From positions 27,990 through 91,989 of the forward strand of contig JAACZU010000013.1 of the NCBI GenBank assembly GCA_009996615.1: DNA of 64,000 nt, given 5' to 3'. Position numbers and translations under genes: made by a program. Numbering within the stretch: the first letter of the stretch is position 1; the number at the start of each line of letters is the position of its first letter. This document shows positions 47,226 to 55,497 of this stretch, in pieces. The stretch comes from Rhodanobacteraceae bacterium (GTDB lineage: Bacteria > Pseudomonadota > Gammaproteobacteria > Xanthomonadales > Rhodanobacteraceae). The notes below the pieces were generated by a model. That model saw nothing but the letters and a program-made list of their open reading frames with translations. It was not told where the DNA came from and made no database searches.

Positions 47226-47756
47226 ATGAAAGTGATGGTTTTGGCGGCGACGGCGCTGCTCCTGGCGGGAACCCAGGCCAGCGCGCAGGACCGTGACTAC
47301 GATGACCATGGCAACGTCAAGGTGGCGTGGGCCGACGTGCTGCGCGTCGACCCGATCTACGACCGCGTGCAGACCAGCAGTCCGCGCGAAGTCTGCGAGG
47401 ACATTCCGGTCGAGCACCGCGTCGACAACGGCAACAAGGCAGCCGGCACCGTGATCGGCGCGATCGTCGGCGGCGTGCTCGGCAGCACGGTCGGCAAGGG
47501 CGACGGCCGCAAGGCGGCGACTGTGGCCGGCGCGGTCGTCGGCGGCGCGGTCGGCAACAACGTCGCGCAGGGCGGCGAGACCTATTACAGCGGCACCGAA
47601 CGCCGCTGCCACCTGGTGCACGACGTGCGCGAGGAGCGCCGCGTCGTCGCCTACGACGTGCAGTACCGCTACCGCGGAGACGTCTACATGTCGCGCCTGG
47701 ACTACGATCCGGGTGACCGCCTGCGCGTGCGCGTCAGCATCACGCCGGCCGAGTAG
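47226..47756 (+). CDS. Glycine-zipper 2TM domain protein (secreted; paralogue of 25932..26408)
   Basis: Signal peptide MKVMVLAATALLLAGTQASA. Zipper GAIVGGVLGSTVGKGDGRKAATVAGAVVGGAVGN. Confidence 0.75.
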   Translation: MKVMVLAATALLLAGTQASAQDRDYDDHGNVKVAWADVLRVDPIYDRVQTSSPREVCEDIPVEHRVDNGNKAAGTVIGAIVGGVLGSTVGKGDGRKAATVAGAVVGGAVGNNVAQGGETYYSGTERRCHLVHDVREERRVVAYDVQYRYRGDVYMSRLDYDPGDRLRVRVSITPAE

Positions 47757-47770
47757 GCCCGATTCGATTG

Positions 47771-47799
47771 TTGCAACGCCGCAGGTTTGGCGGTAAGTT
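47771..47799 (+). promoter_or_regulatory. Candidate sigma70 promoter (TTGCAA-N17-TAAGTT)
   Basis: -35 TTGCAA (47771-47776), 17-nt spacer, -10 TAAGTT (47794-47799). Lies 25 nt upstream of the short ORF at 47824. Confidence 0.35.
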
Positions 47800-47823
47800 G
47801 CGCGCCTTCGACGTGAGAACCCG

Positions 47824-47928
47824 ATGAACCGAATCGCCGTCCAGCCGCAGATCGTCACCAGCGCCCGCATGGCCGCTGGCATGACCTCGCGCGCGCGTCG
47901 ACCGGAAATCCGCATTCCGGCCGGGTAG
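47824..47928 (+). CDS. Candidate leader peptide (34 codons, MNRIAVQPQIVTSARMAAGMTSRARRPEIRIPAG)
   Basis: ATG to TAG with GC-rich third positions. Arg codons at positions 23, 25, 26 and 30. The 3' end overlaps alternative pairing segments of the downstream terminator. The SD is weak. Confidence 0.35.
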   Translation: MNRIAVQPQIVTSARMAAGMTSRARRPEIRIPAG

Positions 47929-47958
47929 GCTGTCGCACGTCTTTAACGAGTTTCGACG

Positions 47959-47995
47959 AAAAACCCGGCCCGCGTGCCGGGTTTTTTGTTTTTGG
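47959..47995 (+). terminator. Strong rho-independent terminator upstream of the arg operon
   Basis: AAACCCGGC CCGCGT GCCGGGTTT followed by TTTGTTTTT. Confidence 0.7.
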
Positions 47996-48023
47996 ATTTC
48001 TTTGGACGCTTTCTCTTCCCGGG

Positions 48024-48127
48024 TTTACCTCTGCGCGGCTCCCTCCGCGCAAGAGCAAAACCGGCCATCCATGGATTTACCTGTGCGCGGATCCATCCAC
48101 GCAAAGAAAAACTGGCCATCCATGGCC
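48024..48127. repeat. Imperfect tandem duplication (2 x ~52 bp) upstream of argF'
   Basis: TTTACCTCTGCGCGGCTCCCTCCGCGCAAGAGCAAAACCGGCCATCCATGGA followed by TTTACCTGTGCGCGGATCCATCCACGCAAAGAAAAACTGGCCATCCATGGCC. Confidence 0.75.
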
Positions 48128-48156: not shown

Positions 48157-49194
48157 ATGACAACTCGACATTTCCTCAGCACCCAGGACTGGTCCCGCGC
48201 CGAGCTCGACGCGCTGCTCGCGCAGGCGGCCGCGTTCAAGCGTTCCAGGGCCGGCAGCCAGCTCGCCGGCAAGTCGATCGCGCTGCTGTTCTTCAACCCC
48301 TCGATGCGCACGCGCACCAGCTTCGAGCTCGGCGCGTTCCAGCTCGGCGGCCACGCGATCGTGCTGCAGCCGGGCAAGGACGCGTGGCCGATCGAGTTCG
48401 AGGTCGGCACGGTCATGGACGGCGAGGCGGAGGAACACGTCGCCGAGGTCGCGCGCGTGCTGTCGCGCTACGTCGACCTGATCGGCGTGCGCGCGTTCCC
48501 GAAGTTCCAGGACTGGTCGGTCGACCGCGAGGACCGCGTGATCCACGCGTTCGCGAAGCATTCGACGGTGCCGGTGATCAACATGGAGACGATCACGCAC
48601 CCGATGCAGGAGCTGGCTCACATCCAGGCGCTGTGGCAGCACTTCGGCGGCGCCACCCCGGGCGAGGCGCTGCGCGGCAGGAAGTACGTATTGACCTGGA
48701 CGTACCACCCCAAGCCCCTGAACACCGCGGTCGCGAACTCCGCGCTGCAGATCGCCACGCGCTACGGCATGGACGTGACCTTGCTGTGCCCGACCGAGGA
48801 CTACCTGCTCGATCCGCGCTACATGGAGTTCGCGAAGCAGAACGTCGCCGACAACGGCGGCTCGCTGACGATCAGCCACGACCCGGCGAGCGCCTACCGC
48901 GGCGCGCACGTCGTCTACGCCAAGAGCTGGGGCGCGCTGCCGTACTTCGGCCGCTGGGCCGACGAAAAGCCGATCCGCGATGCGCACAAGCACTTCATCG
49001 TCGACGAAGCCAAGATGGCGCTGACTGACCACGGCGTGTTCAGCCACTGCCTGCCGCTGCGCCGCAACGTCAAGGCGACCGACGCGGTCATGGACTCGCC
49101 CGCGTGCATCGCGATCGACGAGGCCGAGAACCGGTTGCATGTGCAGAAAGCGGTGATGGCGCAGCTTGCTGCGCAAGCAGGGAATCGGGAATAG
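48157..49194 (+). CDS. argF: N-acetylornithine carbamoyltransferase (AOTCase-type ArgF')
   Basis: FFNPSMRTRTSFELGAFQLGGHA, PVINMETITHP.QELAH, LTWTYHPKPLNTAVANSAL and HCLPLRRNVKATD are nearly collinear with the X. campestris AOTCase as I recall it. The stop TAG lies inside a repeat arm. Confidence 0.9.
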   Translation: MTTRHFLSTQDWSRAELDALLAQAAAFKRSRAGSQLAGKSIALLFFNPSMRTRTSFELGAFQLGGHAIVLQPGKDAWPIEFEVGTVMDGEAEEHVAEVARVLSRYVDLIGVRAFPKFQDWSVDREDRVIHAFAKHSTVPVINMETITHPMQELAHIQALWQHFGGATPGEALRGRKYVLTWTYHPKPLNTAVANSALQIATRYGMDVTLLCPTEDYLLDPRYMEFAKQNVADNGGSLTISHDPASAYRGAHVVYAKSWGALPYFGRWADEKPIRDAHKHFIVDEAKMALTDHGVFSHCLPLRRNVKATDAVMDSPACIAIDEAENRLHVQKAVMAQLAAQAGNRE

Positions 49195-49315
49195 GGAATA
49201 GGGAATCGTCAAAGCAGGCTTTCGTACGCATCAGTCTCTACTTCATTTCACCCATCTCTCGGACGCCGTCATGTCGAACGCTTCCACCATTCCCCATTCC
49301 CAATTCCCAATTCCC
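49180..49315. repeat. Heptamer-arm element (GGGAATA/GGGAATC type) bridging argF' and argG
   Basis: Left arm GGGAATCGGGAATAGGGAATAGGGAATCG (49180-49208). Right arm CCATTCCCCATTCCCAATTCCCAATTCCC (49287-49315). Confidence 0.85.
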
Positions 49316-50521
49316 GCCTCCGGAGAGCGCCAAGACATAGTCTTGGCGTTCTCCGGAGGATTGGACACCAGCTTCTGCGTGCCCTACCTGAAGGAGCGCG
49401 GCTGGGCCGTGCACACGGTGTTCGCCGACACCGGTGGCGTCGACGCGGAGGAGCGCGCGTACATCGAGCAGCGCGCGCACGAACTCGGCGTCGCCTCGCA
49501 CGTGACCGTCGACGGCGGTCCGGCGATCTGGGACGGCTTCGTCAAGCCGTTCGTCTGGGCCGGCGAGGGTTATCAAGGCCAGTATCCGCTGCTGGTGTCG
49601 GACCGCTACCTGATCGTCGACGCCGCGCTCAGGCGCTGCGCCGAGCTCGGCACGCGCGCGATCGCGCACGGCTGCACCGGCATGGGCAACGACCAGGTGC
49701 GCTTCGACCTCGCGGTCAAGGCGCAGGGCGACTACGAGATCGTCGCGCCGATCCGCGAGATCCAGAAGGAGCACACCGAGGTGCGCGCGTACGAACAGAA
49801 GTACCTCGAAGAGCGCGGCTTCGGCGTGCGCGCCAAGCAGAAGGCCTACACGATCAACGAGAACCTGCTTGGACTCACGATGTCCGGCGGCGAGATCGAC
49901 CGCTGGCAGGCGCCGGGCGAGGGCGCGCGTGGCTGGTGCAAGTCGCGCGCGGAATGGCCGACCGCGCCGCTGCGCGTGAAGCTGACCTTCGCCCACGGCG
50001 AGGCGGTCGCGCTCGACGGCGCGAAGATCGCCGGCCACGAACTGCTGGCCAGGCTCAACGGCCTGTTCGCGCAGTACGGCGTCGGCCGCGGTATCTACAC
50101 CGGCGACACGACGATCGGCCTCAAGGGTCGCATCATCTTCGAGGCGCCCGGCCTGGTCGCGCTGCTGACCGCGCATCGCGCGCTGGAAGAGGCGGTGCTG
50201 ACCAAGCAGCAGAACCGCTTCAAGCCCGACGTCGCGCGCAAGTGGGTCGAGCTGGTCTACGAAGGCTTCTTCCACGATCCGCTCAAGACCGACCTCGAGG
50301 CGTTCCTTGCCTCGAGCCAGGTCACGGTCAACGGCGACGTCGTGCTCGAGACCAGCGGCGGCAGCGTCAGCGCGGTCGCAATCGAGTCGAAGCACATCCT
50401 CAACGCCAAGGGCGCGACCTATGCGCAGGCCGCCGACTGGGGCGTCGCCGAGGCCGAAGGCTTCATCAAGCTGTTCGGCATGAGCTCGACGTTGTGGGCG
50501 CAGGTGAATGCGAAGGAATGA
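49271..50521 (+). CDS. argG: Argininosuccinate synthase
   Basis: [19 protein letters not shown]-binding motif. 416 aa. N-terminal codons 6-15 are repeat-derived. Confidence 0.94.
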
Positions 50522-50596
50522 GTGGGAGAAGTGAGAAACGAGAGAAAGCGGTGATGCCCCGTCACTCGTTTCTCACTCCTCTTCACTCGTTTCTCC
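50522..50596. repeat. GAGAAAC-type palindromic element between argG and argE
   Basis: GAGAAGTGAGAAACGAGAGAAAG ... CACTCGTTTCTCACTCCTCTTCACTCGTTTCTCC. AGTGAGAAACGAG pairs with CTCGTTTCTCACT. Confidence 0.7.
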
Positions 50597-50608
50597 GACA
50601 AGAGAACA

Positions 50609-51703
50609 ATGATGCTCAAGGAAACACTGGCTCATCTGAGGCACCTCGTCGCCTTCGACACGCGCAATCCGCCGCGCGCGATCGGCACCGGCGGCATCTT
50701 CGACTACCTGCGCGCGAACCTGCTGGGCTTCGAGGTCACCGTCACCGACCACGGCGCCGGCGCCGTCAGCCTGTATGCAGTGCGCGGCCAGCCGAAGCTG
50801 CTGTTCAACGTGCACTTGGACACCGTGCCCGATTCGCCGCACTGGAGCGCGAGTCCGTTCGAGCTGCGCGTGACCGAGGATCGGGCAATCGGCCTCGGCG
50901 CCTGCGACATCAAGGGCGCCGCGGCGGCGCTGCTCGCTGCCGCGCAGGCCAGCGACGGCGATGCCGCATTCCTGTTCACGACCGACGAGGAAGCGAACGA
51001 CCCGCGTTGCATCGCGGCGTTCCTGCGCGAGGCGCCCGCATTCGATGCCGTGCTGGTGGCCGAGCCGACCAAGGGCGAAGCCGTGCTCGCGCACCGCGGC
51101 ATCAGTTCGGTGCTGATGCGCTTCGCCGGCCGTGCCGGCCACGCCTCGGGCGAGCAGCAGCTCTCGGACAGCGCGCTGCACCAGGCGCTGCGCTGGGGTG
51201 CGTGTGCGCTCGACCAGGTCGAGTCGCTCGCGCATGCGCGCTTCGGCGGCCTGACCGGCCTGCGTTTCAACATCGGCCGCGTCGAAGGCGGCATCAAGGC
51301 CAACGTGATCGCGCCGGCGGCGGAGCTGCGCTTCGGCTTCCGCCCGCTGCCGTCGATGGACACCGACGAACTGCTGGCGACGTTCCGCGGCCTCGCCGAG
51401 GTCGCGCCGGCCGAGTTCACCGAAACCTTCCGCGGCCCGTCGCTGCCGGCCGGCGACATCGCCACCGCCGAGGCGCGCCGGCTCGCCGCGCGCGACGTCG
51501 CCGACGCGCTGGAGCTGCCGATCGGCAGCGCGGTCGATTTCTGGACCGAGGCCTCGCTGTTCTCGCAGGCCGGCTACACCGCACTCGTCTACGGCCCCGG
51601 CGACATCGCGCAGGCGCACAGCGCCGACGAGTGGGTCGCGCTCGAACAGTTGCAGCGCTACGCCGAAACCGTCCACCGCATCCTCACCCGACAGACTCCA
51701 TGA
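50609..51703 (+). CDS. argE: M20-family acetylornithine/acetylcitrulline deacetylase
   Basis: [18 protein letters not shown] and FTTDEE metal-binding pattern. Position within the arg cluster. Confidence 0.85.
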
Positions 51704-53022
51704 ACGCCGAAACGCATCTGCAAATGCGCCAGACCATCCTGCGCCTGCTCTCGAGCATGGCCAGCGCGCGCGAGATCGACCAGTACCTCAAGCGTTTCTC
51801 GCAGCTCGATGCGAAGCGCTTCGCCGTGGTCAAGGTCGGCGGCGCGGTGCTGCGCGACGACCTCGACGCGCTGACCTCGTCGCTGGCATTCCTGCAGCAG
51901 GTCGGACTAACGCCGATCGTCGTGCACGGCGCCGGCCCCCAGCTCGACGAGGAACTGGCCGCGGCCGGCATCGCCAAACAGACCGTCAACGGCCTGCGCG
52001 TGACCTCGGCGGAAACGCTGGCGATCGTGCGGCGCGTGTTCCAGACGCAGAACCTGAACCTGGTCGAGGCGCTGCAGGAAGTCGACGCGCGCGCGACCTC
52101 GGTGCTGTCGGGCGTGTTCGAGGCCGAGTTCATCGACCAGGACGCGCTCGGCCTGGTCGGCCGCGTCGCGCGCGTGAACCTCGCGCCGATCGAGGCGTCG
52201 CTGCGCGCCGGCTCCATTCCGGTGATCGCCTCGCTCGGCGAAACCGCGGGCGGGCAGATCGTCAATATCAACGCCGACTTCGCCGCGAACGAGCTCGTGC
52301 GCGTGCTCAAGCCCTACAAGATCATCTTCCTGACCGGCACCGGCGGCCTGCTCGACGAGAACGGCCGCATCATCGACTCGATCAACCTCAGCACCGAGTA
52401 CGCGCACCTGATCGCGCAGCCGTGGATCAACGGCGGCATGCGCGTGAAGATCGAGCAGATCAAGGAATTGCTCGACCACTTGCCGCTGTCGTCGTCGGTG
52501 TCGATCACCAGGCCGGACGAACTGGCCAAGGAACTGTTCACGCACAAGGGCTCGGGCACGCTGGTACGGCGCGGCGAGCGCGTCGACGTGCATGCGTCGT
52601 GGGACGCGCTCGACCTCGAGCGCCTGCGCGCGCTGATCGAAGCCGGCTTCGGCCGCAAGTTGGTGCCCGCCTATTTCGAGCAGACCCGGCTGTTCAAGGC
52701 CTACGTCAGCGAGAACTACCGCGCCGCGCTGATCCTGACCCAAGAGGATGGCTTCGCCTACCTCGACAAGTTCGCGGTCGCCGAGGACGCGCAGGGCGAG
52801 GGCCTCGGCCGCGCCGCGTGGCAGGTCATGCGCGCGGACAATCCGCAGCTGTTCTGGCGCTCGCGCCGGCGCAACGTGATCAATGCGTTCTACGACGCCG
52901 AATGCGACGGCAGCATCAAGGAGCCGACCTGGAAGGTGTACTGGTACGGCATCGACGACTTCAAGGACATCGAGCGCTGCGTCGTGCATTGCCGCACGCG
53001 CCTGCCGACGTTGACGGACTGA
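51700..53022 (+). CDS. argAB: Bifunctional N-acetylglutamate synthase/kinase (ArgA/B type)
   Basis: ATGA overlap with argE. N-terminal amino-acid-kinase domain ([17 protein letters not shown]) plus a C-terminal GNAT-like domain ([19 protein letters not shown]). Confidence 0.88.
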
Positions 53023-53026
53023 AACG

Positions 53027-53974
53027 ATGAAGGAAACGAAGACTCTCGGCATCGTTGGCGCGCGCGGCCACACCGGCGCGGAGCTGATTCGCCTCGTCGC
53101 GCGGCATCCGCGGCTCGAACTCGCGTTCGTGTCCTCGCGCGAGCTGGACGGCCAGCGCGTGCACGACCACGTGCCCGACTACGACGGCGTACTGCGCTAC
53201 GAGAACCTCGCGCCCGAGGCGGTCGCGGCGAAGCGGGCCGATGCGGTCGTGCTGGCGCTGCCGAATGGCAAGGCGGCCGAGTTCGTCGCCGCGATCGACG
53301 CGCTCAAGGCCGATCCGGTCATCGTCGACCTGTCCGCCGACTACCGCTTCGACGAGGCTTGGTACTACGGCCTGCCGGAGCTGACGCGCACGCGCTACGC
53401 GGGGCAGAAGCGCATCAGCAATCCGGGCTGCTACGCGACCGCGATGCAGCTCGCGATCGCGCCGCTGAAGGACCGCCTCGCCGCGCCGCCGGCCTGCTTC
53501 GGCGTGTCCGGCTACTCCGGCGCCGGCACCACGCCGTCGGACAGGAACGATCCGGACAAGCTGCGCGACAACCTGATGCCGTACGCGCTGGTCGACCACC
53601 TGCACGAGCGCGAGGTCACGCGCCAGCTCGGCCTGCCGGTCGAGTTCATGCCGCACGTCGCGCCGCATTTCCGCGGCATCACGATGACGGTGAACCTGTG
53701 GCTCACGCAGGCGGCCAAGCGCGACGACATCCTCGCGCGCTACCGCGAGTTCTACGCCAACGAGCCCCTCGTGCGCATCGTCGACGAGGCACCTTGGGTC
53801 AGCGCGATTGCCGGAAAGCATCATGCGGAAATCGGCGGCTTCGCGGTCGCGCCGGGCGGCAAGCGCGTCGTCGTCGTCGCGACGCTCGACAACCTGCTCA
53901 AGGGCGCCGCGACGCAGGCGATGCAGAACCTCAACCTCGCGTTCGGCTTCGACGAACTGAGCGCGATCCAGTAG
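53027..53974 (+). CDS. argC: N-acetyl-gamma-glutamyl-phosphate reductase
   Basis: [13 protein letters not shown]. Catalytic Cys in [10 protein letters not shown]. Confidence 0.93.
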
Positions 53975-54012
53975 CCCGCCAGCTTCGGTGAGCTGGCAGC
54001 AGTAGCTCGTCG

Positions 54013-54216
54013 CCCCGGCGAAGGCCGGGGCCCAGTGCCTCTCCAGATCGCTGAAGACGCTGGGTCCCGGCCTTCGCCGGGACGACGAGAATGTAGGCTT
54101 TCGCAAATCCGCATTCCCCAATCCCCAACCCGAACCCTGCTTTTTCGCCCCAAGCGCGAAACGGAGCACCGATGAACGGCTCTTCCGAATCCCCAATCCC
54201 GAATCCCGAATCCCGG
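54013..54216. repeat. Partial composite element: two internal hairpins plus two C-rich arms, no G-rich arm
   Basis: Hairpins CCCCGGCGAAGGCCGGGG (54013-54030) and TCCCGGCCTTCGCCGGGA (54065-54082). C-rich arms at 54105-54137 and 54185-54216. Confidence 0.8.
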
Positions 54217-55497
54217 CTCCTATGGCAAAAAGAAGGCACCCGCACCGACGAGCGCATCATGCGTTTCCTCGCCGGTGACGACGTGATCCTCGACCGCGAG
54301 TTCTTCCTGCACGACATCGAGGCGAGCCAGGCGCACGTCGGCGGGCTCGCCAACATCGGCATCATCAGCGACGACGAGCGCGCCACGATCGTGCGCGAGC
54401 TCGAGGTGCTCGCCGACGACTTCCGCGCCGGCCGCTTCGTGCTCGACGAGCGCTACGAGGACGGCCATTCGGCGATCGAGGCGCGCCTGACCGAGCGCCT
54501 GGGCGATGCCGGCCGCAAGGTGCACACCGGGCGCAGCCGCAACGACCAGATCCTGGTCGCCACGCGCCTGTGGCTGAAGGCCAAGCTGGCCGAGCTGTTC
54601 GAGGCCTGCCGCGCCGCGGCGCAGGTCTGCCTCGAGCGCGCTGCCGGCGAGGCGCTGCCGCTGCCGGGCTACACGCACCTGCAGCGCGCGGTGGTGTCGT
54701 CGACCGCGCTGTGGTTCGCCGGCTTCGCCGAAGCGTTCATCGACGACGCCCGTCGCGCGCGCGACACGCTGGCCTGGCTCGACGCGAACCCGCTCGGTAC
54801 CGCGGCCGGCTATGGCGTGAACCTGCCGCTCGACCGCGCGCACACGACGCAGGCGCTCGGCTTCGCGCGCATGCAGGTCAACCCGGTCTACGCGCAGCTC
54901 TCGCGTGGCAAGTTCGAGATCGGCGCGCTCGACGCGCTCGGCAGTGCGCTGCTCGACCTGCGCCGGCTGGCCTGGGACCTGTCGCTGTTCACGACCGCCG
55001 AATACGGCTTCGTGCAGCTGCCGGCCGAGTACACGACCGGCAGTTCGATCATGCCGAACAAGCGCAATCCCGACGTGGTCGAGCTGATGCGCGCGAGCTA
55101 TGCCAGCGTCGCCGCGGCGCGCACCGAGATCGAGCAGCTGCTGTCGCTGCCGTCCGGCTACCAGCGCGACCTGCAGTTCTCCAAGGGCGCGATCTTCCAC
55201 GGCTTCCATCGTGGTCTCGACGCGCTCGCGTTGCTGCCGGACCTGCTCGCGCGGATGCAGTGGAACGCACCGGCAATGCGCGCGGCGATCGAGCCGTCGA
55301 TGTACGCGACCGACGTCGCGATCGAGCAGGCCGCCGCCGGCGTGCCGTTCCGCGAGGCATACCGCCAGGCGGCCGAAGCCGCGGCGACGGCCGGGCAGGG
55401 GCGCACGCCGGAAACGAGCCTGGCCGCGCGCGTGTCACCCGGTGCGACGGCCGACCTTTGCCTCGACGAGCTGCGCGCGCGGCTGGCCGCCTTGTAG
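54172..55497 (+). CDS. argH: Argininosuccinate lyase
   Basis: TGRSRNDQ and the [12 protein letters not shown] signature. N-terminal [11 protein letters not shown] is encoded by a repeat arm. Confidence 0.93.

What the first reader, a model, noticed from the sequence alone, without database searches (positions are those of the whole stretch)
47771..47995. Candidate Arg-codon leader-peptide attenuator in front of the arginine biosynthesis operon
Seen, promoter and ORF: (1) TTGCAA-N17-TAAGTT lies at 47771-47799. (2) A 34-codon ORF (47824-47928) encodes MNRIAVQPQIVTSARMAAGMTSRARRPEIRIPAG, with Arg at codons 23, 25, 26 and 30. Seen, pairings: (3) segment 1, CCGGAA (47902-47907), pairs with segment 2, TTCCGG (47915-47920). 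(4) GGCCGGGT (47919-47926), which overlaps segment 2 and the last codons, is identical to the 3' half of the terminator stem, so it can pair with ACCCGGCC (47963-47970). That gives an 8-bp antiterminator mutually exclusive with both the 1:2 pairing and the terminator. (5) The terminator is AAACCCGGC/GCCGGGTTT plus a T-run (47961-47993). (6) The arg operon starts 160 nt later. Inference: this is classic trp/his-type logic. A ribosome stalled at the RARR codons would cover segment 1 and free segment 2 for antitermination, while a ribosome reaching the stop would cover segment 2 and allow termination. Established: leader-peptide attenuation is known for trp, his, leu, thr, ilv and phe operons. 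As far as I know, arginine operons are usually ArgR-controlled. Caveats: the SD is weak, there are only four Arg codons in the critical stretch, and the terminator could simply end the upstream glycine-zipper gene.
Basis: inference. Interest (0 to 1): 0.7.

Follow-up and report, generated by a model that had tools for sequence, protein, structure and literature searches.

The report
Arginine-operon leader peptide transcription attenuator
A 34-codon mini-gene and a switchable RNA terminator sit in front of the arginine-synthesis genes here and in about 150 related loci from Xanthomonas-group bacteria and metagenomes, and most likely turn the operon on when arginine runs short; the Xanthomonas copy was published as a "small RNA" of unknown function.

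Summary
Comparative data show they are not chance.

- **Conservation.** All 78 relatives with enough upstream DNA, plus 68 of 69 metagenome loci, carry the same small ORF, on the same strand, upstream of argF'-argG-argE-argB-argC-argH.
- **Translation.** An ATG sits 17-19 codons before a near-invariant core, (T/S)SA(R)MAAGMTSRARRP. In the AAGMTSRARRP part, departures from consensus at codon positions 1/2/3 are 12/6/224, so the peptide itself is under selection.
- **Arg codons.** The three Arg codons are only CGC or CGT, then an invariant CGA. CGA is about 1% of Arg codons in the window's genes.
- **RNA switch.** The ORF's last codons, GCCGGG-UAG, pair with the terminator's 5' arm. This antiterminator is kept in 93% of cells and co-varies with both terminator arms (CG 67, UA 11, none broken).
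- **Known relative.** The Xanthomonas homologue is Rfam Xoo5 (sRNA-Xoo5). Its 5'-RACE end lies 2 nt before the ATG.

Best reading: ribosome-mediated attenuation that senses arginine supply. The conserved nascent peptide is an extra, unexplained layer. No experiment on arginine response exists.

The parts
47771..47799 (+). Promoter-like element TTGCAA-N17-TAAGTT. The predicted TSS is near 47806, giving a 5' UTR of about 17 nt with a GAGA SD-like motif 5 nt before the ATG.
   Evidence: Sequence. A TTGC(R)N-N17-(T/C/G)ANNNT element lies at the equivalent place in nearly all of 74 relatives. In Xanthomonas the homologous promoter fits the published 5'-RACE end.
47824..47928 (+). Leader ORF of 34 codons plus TAG: MNRIAVQPQIVTSARMAAGMTSRARRPEIRIPAG.
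   Evidence: An in-frame ATG lies 17-19 codons before the core in 74 of 78 loci, and a GTG in some others. No in-frame stop occurs in 79 of 79, whereas the antisense frame that shares third positions is broken in 42 of 79.
47857..47904 (+). Conserved peptide core, codons 12-27 (TSARMAAGMTSRARRP).
   Evidence: the amino acids are invariant or nearly so while third positions vary freely; departures from consensus at codon positions 1/2/3 are 12/6/224 for AAGMTSRARRP. Across the 16 core codons there are 236 synonymous and 74 non-synonymous codon changes.
47890..47901 (+). Regulatory Arg codons CGC-(GCG)-CGT-CGA (R23, A24, R25, R26), followed by Pro CCG at 47902-04.
   Evidence: codon 23 is CGC 43 / CGT 36, codon 25 is CGC 52 / CGT 26, and codon 26 is CGA in 78 of 79. 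CGG never occurs. CGA is 2 of 181 Arg codons in 7 window genes. In a hisL attenuator assay CGA was the slowest codon read by the CGU/CGC/CGA tRNA (PMC4046918).
47919..47926 (+). Antiterminator 5' strand GGCCGGGT. It covers the last two sense codons and the first base of the stop codon.
   Evidence: it pairs with 47963-47970 and is 93% paired over 78 sequences. Pair 178/245 is CG 67 / UA 11 with none broken; slid controls give 23-56%. Variants in which the stop moves keep the strand (L075, L117, L130).
47931..47958 (+). Inner hairpin (UGUCG 47931-35 with CGACG 47954-58). It stacks inside the antiterminator and is compatible with either state.
   Evidence: per-sequence MFE folds show a bipartite hairpin in most loci. 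The sequences differ between clades. This helix was not resolved by RNAalifold.
47960..47993 (+). Intrinsic terminator: AAAACCCGGC, loop CCGCGT, GCCGGGTTTT, then a T-run. Its 5' arm (47963-47970) is shared with the antiterminator.
   Evidence: compensatory pairs 245/256 (GC 66 / AU 11) and 241/260 (AU 69 / GC 8). Present in 78 of 78 aligned loci.
48157..55497 (+). Regulated operon: argF' (48157-49194), argG (49271-50521), argE (50609-51703), argB (about 51751-53022), argC (53027-53974), argH (54172-55497).
   Evidence: NCBIfam matches above the curated cut-offs.

Best explanation
This is a ribosome-mediated (leader-peptide) transcription attenuator of the arginine biosynthesis operon.

Transcription starts at the TTGCAA-N17-TAAGTT promoter, and a ribosome translates the 34-codon leader. 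What happens next depends on arginine supply.

- **Arginyl-tRNA(ICG) scarce.** The ribosome lingers on CGC-GCG-CGU-CGA. The last codon is the slowest one read by that tRNA, and it is followed by Pro. Stalled there, the ribosome's front edge ends about 8 nt short of GCCGGGU, which starts 21 nt downstream of CGA. That strand pairs with ACCCGGC as it emerges and forms a bipartite antiterminator of about -22 kcal/mol. The terminator cannot form, and RNA polymerase reads into argF'GEBCH.
- **Arginine plentiful.** The ribosome runs to the stop codon and sits on GCCGGG-UAG while polymerase transcribes the next 56 nt or so. The terminator folds and transcription ends. This releases a short leader RNA, which is what was cloned in Xanthomonas as sRNA-Xoo5.

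What is shown: the ORF, peptide-level and codon-level selection, the two mutually exclusive helices with covariation, the constant spacing, and the exclusive link to argF'.

What is inferred: that Arg-tRNA charging is the signal, the ribosome-masking geometry, and the kinetic coupling.

The 16-residue conserved peptide is not explained by codon sensing alone. I take it to tune pausing from inside the exit tunnel.
For: **Distribution**
- 78 of 78 Xanthomonadales loci with enough upstream DNA carry the ORF upstream of argF' on the same strand.
- 68 of 69 pattern-selected metagenome loci, and 4 of 4 peptide-selected places (three proteins looked up), have argF' directly downstream.

**Translation**
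- The ATG lies at a fixed distance of 17-19 codons.
- Frame 0 is open in 79 of 79.
- Variation has period 3: 12/6/224.
- The antisense alternative is excluded.

**Arg codons**
- They are invariant and restricted to CGC/CGU plus an invariant CGA, which is 1% of genomic Arg usage.
- CGA is decoded slowest and de-attenuates a hisL reporter (PMC4046918).

**Terminator and antiterminator**
- The terminator shows compensatory changes.
- The antiterminator is 93% paired, with three-way covariation between the ORF end and both terminator arms.
- All 7 antiterminator pairs form in the MFE of 67 of 78 sequences once the 3' arm is left out. Mean energy is -21.6 kcal/mol against -16.3 for the terminator.

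**Geometry**
- CGA to the antiterminator strand is 21 nt in 73 of 78.
- The stop codon abuts or overlaps the strand even in variant leaders.

**Experimental anchor in a homologue**
- sRNA-Xoo5 lies immediately upstream of PXO_00353, which is N-acetylornithine carbamoyltransferase.
- Its 5'-RACE end is 2 nt before the ATG and 8 nt after the -10 box.
- Short transcripts of about 130 and 100 nt were seen (PMC3039613).
- A TSS was also seen for the Xcv homologue (PMC3300014).
Against: - There is no experimental link to arginine in any species.
- Only three regulatory Arg codons are present.
- No conserved anti-antiterminator (1:2) or pause hairpin was found. An untranslated leader would therefore read through, unlike trp.
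- The strong amino-acid conservation of MAAGMTS...P is not required by a hungry-codon model.
- Covariation rests mainly on one base-pair position, which changed in only a few lineages (11 sequences).
- One extra locus, L084, has a C·A mismatch there.
- The cloned 3' end of Xoo5 (124 nt) lies just 5' of the terminator hairpin rather than at its T-run.
- Whether these genomes have ArgR was not tested.
Confidence: 0.62

Rival explanations
1. A ligand-sensing arrest peptide. The conserved nascent chain (SARMAAGMTSRARRP) in the exit tunnel would bind free arginine or a pathway intermediate. It would hold the ribosome at the Arg-Arg-Pro site or at the stop codon. Held at the stop, the ribosome masks GCCGGGU and promotes termination. 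This would be a bacterial functional analogue of the fungal arginine attenuator peptide, TnaC or SpeFL, with the same RNA switch as output.
For: - The peptide is under selection, with departures of 12/6/224 by codon position, while its N-terminal 11 and C-terminal 5 residues vary freely.
- When the stop codon is in the A site, the conserved block lies 8-23 residues from the peptidyl-transferase centre, which is inside the tunnel.
- Stop codons are skewed to UAG/UAA (68 of 73), against mostly UGA in window ORFs.
- There is precedent for a conserved-domain leader that combines Arg codons with metabolite sensing: orf34/SpeFL (PMC6386406).
Against: - There is no sequence similarity to any known arrest peptide, and no Pfam or NCBIfam hit.
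- Invariant rare-codon choice (CGA, never CGG) points to tRNA-level sensing.
- Variants that end 2 codons early, or right after Pro (L117, L130, L116), change the distance between the conserved block and the stop.
- No stalling data exist.
Confidence: 0.2
2. A primarily trans-acting small RNA (sRNA-Xoo5 as published), or a functional micropeptide. On this reading the position in front of argF' is incidental and the terminator is simply the end of the sRNA gene.
For: - It was detected as a discrete short transcript in Xoo, and it is in Rfam as a 'Gene; sRNA'.
- Attenuator RNAs and leader peptides can have trans functions, for example rnTrpL/peTrpL (PMC7968998, listed).
- Strong peptide conservation would fit a micropeptide.
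Against: - It is linked to argF' on the same strand in about 150 loci.
- No separate promoter for argF' is evident in loci where only 67-100 nt separate the ORF stop from argF'.
- Period-3 variation contradicts a non-coding RNA.
- The conserved alternative helix that overlaps the terminator has no role in a plain sRNA gene.
- A trans role could exist in addition, but would not replace the cis role.
Confidence: 0.08
3. Chance ORF plus the ordinary terminator of the upstream glycine-zipper gene (47226-47756). The arg operon would be regulated elsewhere, for example by ArgR.
For: - The upstream gene has no terminator of its own before the leader promoter, with only 14 nt between its stop and the -35 box.
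- That gene is syntenic in 66 of 78 loci, so the terminator probably also ends its transcripts.
Against: - Leader and terminator are retained in 11 loci where that gene is absent or not adjacent, and in L084, where the upstream neighbour is on the other strand.
- The conservation and coding signature of the ORF, together with the covarying antiterminator, are incompatible with chance.
Confidence: 0.03

Closest known systems
Classical leader-peptide attenuators of amino-acid operons (trpL, hisL, pheL, leuL, thrL, ilvL of Proteobacteria)
   Same: - A short ORF in the 5' leader of a biosynthetic operon carries codons for the end-product amino acid.
- An intrinsic terminator competes with an antiterminator that shares its 5' arm.
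- The stop codon is placed so that a terminating ribosome masks the antiterminator strand.
- Rare or slow cognate codons are used, as with CUA in leuL (from my own knowledge).
   Different: - The amino acid is arginine. I found no described bacterial arg-biosynthesis leader peptide in ten literature searches.
- There are only three cognate codons.
- No conserved 1:2 anti-antiterminator or pause hairpin exists.
- Sixteen residues are conserved at the peptide level across the whole order.
- The ORF is leaderless or nearly so in about half of the lineages.
sRNA-Xoo5 / Rfam RF02242 (Xanthomonadaceae sRNA Xoo5; Liang et al. 2011, PMC3039613)
   Same: This is the same locus in Xanthomonas. It lies between PXO_00354 and PXO_00353 (argF'). 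The Rfam model starts 2 nt before the leader ATG and spans the ORF. The window matches it with E = 1e-7.
   Different: - It was published and curated as an sRNA gene, with no mention of an ORF, arginine or attenuation.
- The Rfam model stops before the terminator and gives a secondary structure that ignores the antiterminator/terminator switch.
- The window scores 42.9 bits, below the gathering score of 50.
- Only Xanthomonas-type loci pass.
orf34 / SpeFL leader of speF (Salmonella, E. coli; PMC6386406)
   Same: It is a 34-codon leader ORF with a conserved peptide domain and consecutive Arg codons. Ribosome pausing at those codons when arginine is absent changes the downstream mRNA structure.
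   Different: - There is no sequence similarity.
- It controls ornithine decarboxylase, not arginine synthesis.
- Its outputs are Rho-dependent termination, RBS unmasking and RNase G decay, not an intrinsic terminator/antiterminator pair.
Fungal arginine attenuator peptide (arg-2 / CPA1 uORF; Pfam Leader_CPA1) and TnaC
   Same: These are conserved leader peptides upstream of an arginine-pathway gene (AAP), or peptides that act from inside the ribosome tunnel at or near the stop codon in response to a free amino acid. This comparison is from my own knowledge.
   Different: - No Pfam match was found.
- AAP acts on eukaryotic scanning and NMD, and TnaC acts by blocking Rho.
- Ligand-dependent stalling is untested here.

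Membership tests
Ribosome-mediated (leader-peptide) transcription attenuator | A short translated ORF in the leader of an amino-acid biosynthetic operon | tested here: met
   A 34-codon ORF lies 228 nt upstream of argF'. The start is conserved, the frame is open in 79 of 79, and variation has period 3. Translation itself was not measured.
Ribosome-mediated (leader-peptide) transcription attenuator | Codons for the cognate amino acid are concentrated at a defined site in the ORF | tested here: met
   R-A-R-R: three Arg codons in four positions, invariant in 78-79 of 79, with restricted codon choice. This is fewer than in his or phe and similar to trp, which has two.
Ribosome-mediated (leader-peptide) transcription attenuator | An intrinsic terminator between the leader ORF and the first structural gene | tested here: met
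   47960-47993. Conserved, with compensatory changes, in 78 of 78.
Ribosome-mediated (leader-peptide) transcription attenuator | An antiterminator helix mutually exclusive with the terminator, with its 5' strand at the end of the ORF | tested here: met
   47919-26 pairs with 47963-70. It is 93% paired, with CG 67 / UA 11 covariation and slid controls of 23-56%. It forms in the MFE in 67 of 78.
Ribosome-mediated (leader-peptide) transcription attenuator | An anti-antiterminator (1:2) or pause hairpin that sequesters the antiterminator strand | tested here: not met
   The proposed CCGGAA/TTCCGG is 64.5% paired, no better than controls. Per-sequence folds pair the strand with varied partners. This feature is typical of trp-type attenuators but is not needed for a two-state, ribosome-masked switch.
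Ribosome-mediated (leader-peptide) transcription attenuator | Read-through increases on starvation for the cognate amino acid or its charged tRNA | not testable with these tools
   This needs Term-seq, Northern blots or reporter assays with and without arginine.
Rfam RF02242 Xoo5 | A covariance-model score at or above the gathering threshold (50 bits) | tested here: not met
   The window scores 42.9 bits, E = 1e-7. Xanthomonas loci score 97-149 bits and L067 scores 53. Homology is nevertheless clear from the continuous series of intermediates, the shared peptide core and synteny.
Nascent-peptide (arrest-peptide) metabolite sensors (TnaC, SpeFL, fungal AAP) | A leader peptide conserved at the amino-acid level beyond the cognate codons | tested here: met
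   The core (T/S)SA(R)MAAGMTSRARRP is conserved, with 236 synonymous against 74 non-synonymous codon departures.
Nascent-peptide (arrest-peptide) metabolite sensors (TnaC, SpeFL, fungal AAP) | Sequence or profile similarity to a known arrest peptide family | tested here: not met
   No Pfam or NCBIfam family matches at E <= 10 or <= 1.
Nascent-peptide (arrest-peptide) metabolite sensors (TnaC, SpeFL, fungal AAP) | Ligand-dependent ribosome arrest | not testable with these tools
   This needs toeprinting or an in vitro translation arrest assay with arginine, ornithine, citrulline or acetylated intermediates.

The most novel reading that the evidence does not exclude
The conserved 16-residue leader peptide is a bacterial arginine-sensing (or arg-intermediate-sensing) arrest peptide. 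Inside the ribosomal tunnel it would respond to the free metabolite and set how long the ribosome masks the antiterminator strand. The arg operon of a whole bacterial order would then be controlled by a nascent-peptide sensor coupled to an intrinsic terminator. That would be a convergent counterpart of the fungal arginine attenuator peptide, layered on hungry-codon sensing.
Probability: 0.2. Interest if true: 0.85.

Novelty: new variant of a known kind. Interest (0 to 1): 0.62.

Why it matters
**Arginine regulation.** Arginine biosynthesis is the textbook case of repressor (ArgR) control. Leader-peptide attenuation has been described for trp, his, phe, leu, thr and ilv, but I could not find it described for a bacterial arg operon. 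Here an entire order appears to use it. That order includes the plant pathogens Xanthomonas, along with Lysobacter, Rhodanobacter, Dyella and Dokdonella. This would explain how the unusual argF' (acetylornithine transcarbamylase) operon is regulated.

**A published sRNA.** The finding reinterprets a published and Rfam-curated 'sRNA' (Xoo5) as an attenuator leader transcript.

**A testable system.** The element combines hungry rare codons (an invariant CGA), a leaderless start in many lineages, and a strongly conserved nascent peptide. That makes it a compact, directly testable system for asking how codon-level and peptide-level sensing cooperate.

**Practical uses.**
- It flags a 34-aa ORF that annotation pipelines call 'hypothetical protein' or miss.
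- It offers a small arginine-responsive switch for high-GC hosts.

Tried and rejected
1. **Known RNA families.** In the Rfam E-value scan, only Xoo5 was meaningful. The rnk_pseudo, STnc420 and JPX hits are the terminator hairpin or noise. No riboswitch or T-box was found.

2. **Whole-leader fold.** The z-score was -0.5, so single-sequence folding is uninformative at 70% GC.

It is not conserved. A search for any conserved partner of the antiterminator strand inside the leader gave varied partners.

4. **RNA-level explanations for the conserved core.**
   - The Rfam hairpin GGCAUG/CGUGCC and the CCAGC/GCUGG hairpin show no covariation with the variable third positions. I checked this by inspecting.
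   - CGUCGA could pair with the downstream UCGACG, but CGC/CGU alternate without any compensating change.

5. **Antisense coding.** It was rejected.

6. **RNAalifold on the stop-to-terminator spacer.** The inner hairpin could not be resolved because the alignment there is poor. Per-sequence folds were used instead.

7. **Protein family libraries.** Pfam and NCBIfam gave nothing for the peptide. The 5.8-billion-protein search returned 261 clusters, and every source name among the 120 listed is 'hypothetical protein'.

8. **Literature.** Ten searches found no description of an arg leader peptide in these bacteria.

9. **ArgR.** Leyn et al. 2016 (PMC5343134) lists ArgR regulons in 6 gammaproteobacterial groups, but the text I retrieved does not name Xanthomonadales.
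Full report
**Observation.**
- TTGCAA (47771-76), a 17-nt spacer, then TAAGTT (47794-99).
- An ATG-initiated 34-codon ORF at 47824-47928, encoding MNRIAVQPQIVTSARMAAGMTSRARRPEIRIPAG.
- CCGGAA (47902-07) and TTCCGG (47915-20).
- GGCCGGGT (47919-26), complementary over 8 bp to ACCCGGCC (47963-70).
- A strong intrinsic terminator, AAAACCCGGC-CCGCGT-GCCGGGTTTT plus a T-run (47960-93), which the terminator scan picked up.
- The ORF at 48157, which is N-acetylornithine carbamoyltransferase, argF' (NF003384, 596 bits).

Downstream of argF' come argG, argE, argB, argC and argH. Upstream lie a glycine-zipper protein gene on the same strand (47226-47756) and cysS on the other strand. There are two small corrections. 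GGCCGGGT matches the terminator 3' arm at 7 of 8 positions. Arg also occurs at codons 3 and 15.

**Is it more than chance?** A single-sequence fold is uninformative in this 70% GC DNA (z = -0.5), so I turned to relatives.
- A scan of one genome per species with the ArgF' protein returned 80 loci. They came from Dokdonella (92% identity, so the window is Dokdonella-like), Rudaea, Rhodanobacter, Frateuria, Dyella, Luteibacter, Lysobacter, Arenimonas and Xanthomonas.
- In all 78 loci with more than about 100 nt of upstream sequence, a small ORF with the core (V/I)L(T/S)SA(R)MAAGMTSRARRP lies 67-307 nt upstream of argF' on the same strand.
- The reverse test also holds. A 19-specified-base pattern from the core was scanned over metagenome contigs and gave 80 loci. 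Of the 69 that carry the leader and have at least 450 nt of room, 68 have an ArgF' homologue next on the same strand.
- Four places found through the peptide alone (three proteins looked up) all sit before OTCace-ArgG-ArgE.
- Each locus has exactly one copy, and so does the window.

**It is translated, and the peptide itself is under selection.**
- An ATG lies exactly 18 codons before the Gly of GMTSR in 62 loci, and 17-19 codons before it in 74 of 78. Some of the rest have a GTG there.
- The 11 N-terminal residues and the 5 residues after Pro vary freely, but the frame is never broken: 0 of 79 have a stop. The +1 frame always has one.
- In the core, the amino acids are invariant while third positions run through the synonymous alternatives. 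Ala is GCC 54 / GCG 15 / GCT 7 / GCA 3. Gly is GGC 53 / GGG 16 / GGA 8 / GGT 2. Thr is ACC 37 / ACT 21 / ACG 21.
- For AAGMTSRARRP, departures from consensus at codon positions 1/2/3 number 12/6/224. Over the 16 core codons there are 236 synonymous and 74 non-synonymous departures.
- The one antisense frame that would share third positions is interrupted by stops within the span in 42 of 79 loci.
- Gene callers independently predict the ORF in 261 protein clusters. Every source name among the 120 listed is 'hypothetical protein', and no Pfam or NCBIfam model matches.

**Codon-level selection at the Arg codons.**
- Arg23 is CGC 43 / CGT 36.
- Arg25 is CGC 52 / CGT 26.
- Arg26 is CGA in 78 of 79. 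CGG never occurs at any of the three.
- In seven genes of the window, Arg usage is CGC 145, CGG 15, CGT 13, AGG 6 and CGA 2.
- It is established knowledge that in bacteria one inosine-containing tRNA reads all three of the codons used here.
- In a Salmonella hisL attenuator assay, CGA was read significantly more slowly than CGU and CGC, and CGA-containing pairs caused de-attenuation (PMC4046918).
- So the leader places the slowest codon of that tRNA last, directly before a Pro codon.

**The RNA switch.**
- In a 78-sequence alignment (A1), RNAalifold recovers the terminator with compensatory pairs: GC 66 / AU 11 at one position and AU 69 / GC 8 at another.
- The ORF's last two sense codons and the first base of the stop codon (GCCGGG-U) pair with the terminator's 5' arm. 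Over 8 pairs, 93% of cells are standard pairs, against 23-56% when the partner is slid by 1-3 columns.
- Where the terminator is CCCAGC/GCUGGG (Xanthomonas, Lysobacter, Arenimonas and a Pseudolysobacter), the ORF ends GCUGGG. That gives CG 67 / UA 11 with none broken.
- This is effectively a three-way covariation. It rests on one position that changed in few lineages, and an extra locus (L084) has a C·A mismatch there.
- Folding each sequence from the codon after Pro to the end of the terminator's 5' arm gives all seven core pairs in the MFE in 67 of 78, and at least five pairs in 77 of 78. The structure is a bipartite hairpin enclosing a small inner hairpin. Mean energy is -21.6 kcal/mol, against -16.3 for the terminator.
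- The conserved 'AG' at the peptide C-terminus reflects this RNA strand rather than the peptide. In L075, L117, L130 and L091 the stop falls earlier, yet GCUGGGU is kept, overlapping or just after the stop.

**Spacing.**
- CGA to the first base of the strand is 21 nt in 73 of 78.
- The stop to ACCCGGC is a median of 36 nt.
- The stop to the end of the 3' arm is a median of 56 nt.
- A ribosome protects roughly 12-13 nt 3' of the A-site codon (established knowledge).
- A ribosome paused on the Arg codons therefore leaves the strand free. A ribosome at the stop codon holds it. This step is an inference.

**What did not hold.**
- In per-sequence folds of the leader alone, the strand pairs with varied partners.
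- I found no conserved anti-antiterminator. Without translation the default would therefore be read-through, unlike trp.

**Promoter and start.**
- A TTGC(R)N-N17-(T/C/G)ANNNT element lies upstream of the ORF in nearly every locus, in two spacing classes.
- In one class the -10 box ends 22-28 nt before the ATG. The window belongs here, at 24 nt with a GAGA motif; Frateuria and Dyella have a GGAA motif.
- In the other class it ends only 6-10 nt before the ATG, which implies a leaderless or near-leaderless ORF. Xanthomonas is in this class, at 9 nt.
- The Rfam Xoo5 model was built on the 5'-RACE-mapped sRNA-Xoo5 of X. oryzae. It starts 2 nt before the ATG and 8 nt after GAGGAT in X. arboricola.
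- Schmidtke et al. saw a TSS for the Xcv homologue. They also report that 14% of Xcv mRNAs are leaderless and that there is no SD consensus (PMC3300014).
- This removes the 'weak SD' objection.

**Relation to what is known.**
- The window hits Rfam RF02242 (Xoo5) at 42.9 bits, E = 1e-7, below the gathering score of 50. Xanthomonas loci score 97-149 bits.
- Liang et al. 2011 place sRNA-Xoo5 between PXO_00354 and PXO_00353. Their proteomics table names PXO_00353 as N-acetylornithine carbamoyltransferase.
- They report a 124-nt RNA with bands of about 130 and 100 nt, and never mention an ORF, arginine or attenuation (PMC3039613).
- The cloned 3' end lies just upstream of the terminator hairpin, so the cloned species is probably a trimmed or partial product. 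I leave this as a loose end.
- Ten literature searches found no description of a leader-peptide attenuator for a bacterial arginine biosynthesis operon.
- The nearest functional precedent for Arg-codon sensing in a conserved 34-codon leader is orf34/SpeFL of speF. It is unrelated in sequence and works through Rho, RBS masking and RNase G (PMC6386406).

**Rivals.**
- 'Terminator of the upstream gene' is at most a secondary role. The glycine-zipper gene is adjacent in 66 of 78 loci and has no terminator of its own. But leader and terminator persist in the 11 loci where that gene is absent or distant, and in L084, where the neighbour is divergent.
- A purely non-coding sRNA is contradicted by the period-3 substitution pattern.
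- The serious rival, or complement, is a nascent-peptide sensor. The conserved block would lie 8-23 residues from the peptidyl-transferase centre when the stop codon is in the A site. Stop codons are skewed to UAG/UAA (68 of 73), against mostly UGA in window ORFs. Nothing tested here distinguishes this from peptide-tuned hungry-codon pausing.

**Verdict.** This is a real and very well conserved cis-regulatory element. It is best read as a leader-peptide transcription attenuator for the argF'GEBCH operon of Xanthomonadales. I put about 0.85 on the class and 0.62 on Arg-tRNA sensing as the main signal. It is a new variant of a known kind for four reasons:
- It has a new amino-acid specificity.
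- It has no 1:2 hairpin.
- It often has a leaderless start.
- It has an unusually conserved leader peptide.

The arginine response itself remains untested.

Noticed in passing
window 48019-48125: Two tandem copies of a 52-nt unit (48021-48074 and 48073-48125, 84-90% identical) lie between the attenuator terminator and argF'. Each is an imperfect hairpin with 20-nt arms, followed by GGCCATCCATGG. Similar GC-rich hairpins (GCGCGG...CCGCGC, GGCCATCCATGGCC, TGCCATGGATGGCA) occupy the same spacer in some other loci (L001, L010, L016, L019, L028, L036, L038, L048, L050) but not all. They look like REP-type insertions. A role as an operator or RNA element was not examined.
   Followed up: partly
window 47926-47928 and alignment A1 columns 182-184: The leader's stop codon is TAG in 53, TAA in 15 and TGA in 5 of 73 canonical leaders. 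Crude high-GC3 ORFs of the window end in TGA 15, TAG 5, TAA 2. TGA leaders occur only in the Xanthomonas clade. The reason for the skew towards RF1-readable stops is unknown; release kinetics or an RNA constraint are possibilities.
   Followed up: partly
L002, L004, L005, L008, L016, L019, L026, L030, L037, L041, L056, L061 and others (upstream of the leader ATG): In roughly half of the lineages the -10 hexamer ends only 6-10 nt before the leader ATG, which implies a leaderless or 2-4-nt-leader mRNA. In the other half, including the window, the gap is 22-28 nt and an SD-like GGAA or GAGA is present. So the same attenuator appears to use two different modes of translation initiation.
   Followed up: partly
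L117, L130, L091, L116, L153, L075, L058: These are variant leaders. In some the stop falls 2 codons early, so that TAG overlaps the antiterminator strand (TAGCTGGGT). In L116 the stop comes right after Pro. In L075 and L058 the C-terminus is frame-shifted. Most keep the GCYGGGU strand and the terminator. L058 has a poor T-run and may be decaying.
   Followed up: partly
L042, L047, L066: This sub-family has no ATG at the usual position (a GTG about 20 codons upstream is possible). It has Asn (AAC) instead of Pro after CGA: ...SSARMASGMTSRARRNETDIRAG*. The Arg codons, antiterminator strand and terminator are kept. Pro27 is therefore not strictly required.
   Followed up: no
L156 (metagenome contig Ga0079215_10164021): This is the only leader-plus-terminator locus with room downstream where no ArgF' homologue follows on the same strand. 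It may be a rearrangement or an assembly chimera.
   Followed up: no
window 47757-47770: The upstream glycine-zipper gene (PRK11280-like, 47226-47756) ends 14 nt before the leader's -35 box and has no terminator of its own. Its transcripts must run into the leader and be subject to the same terminator. The order cysS(-), glycine-zipper(+), leader, argF' is conserved in 66 of 78 loci.
   Followed up: partly
window 47824-47928; alignment of 79 leaders: The leader uses T-ending codons far more often than the genes of the window. ACT is 21 of 79 in the leader against 5 of 127 Thr codons in the genes. GCT is 26 of 79 against 8 of 379 Ala codons. CGT is 36 of 79 and 26 of 79 at the two positions, against 13 of 181 Arg codons. 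This suggests relaxed or reversed codon-usage selection, possibly for slow translation, across the whole leader and not only at the Arg codons.
   Followed up: no
L061 3737-3860 (X. arboricola), corresponding to window 47828-47943: The published 3' end of sRNA-Xoo5 (model position 124) lies about 5 nt upstream of the terminator hairpin, and the Northern bands are about 130 and 100 nt. A transcript ending at the T-run would be about 157 nt. The abundant species may be processed, or the clone may have been truncated by the stable hairpin.
   Followed up: no
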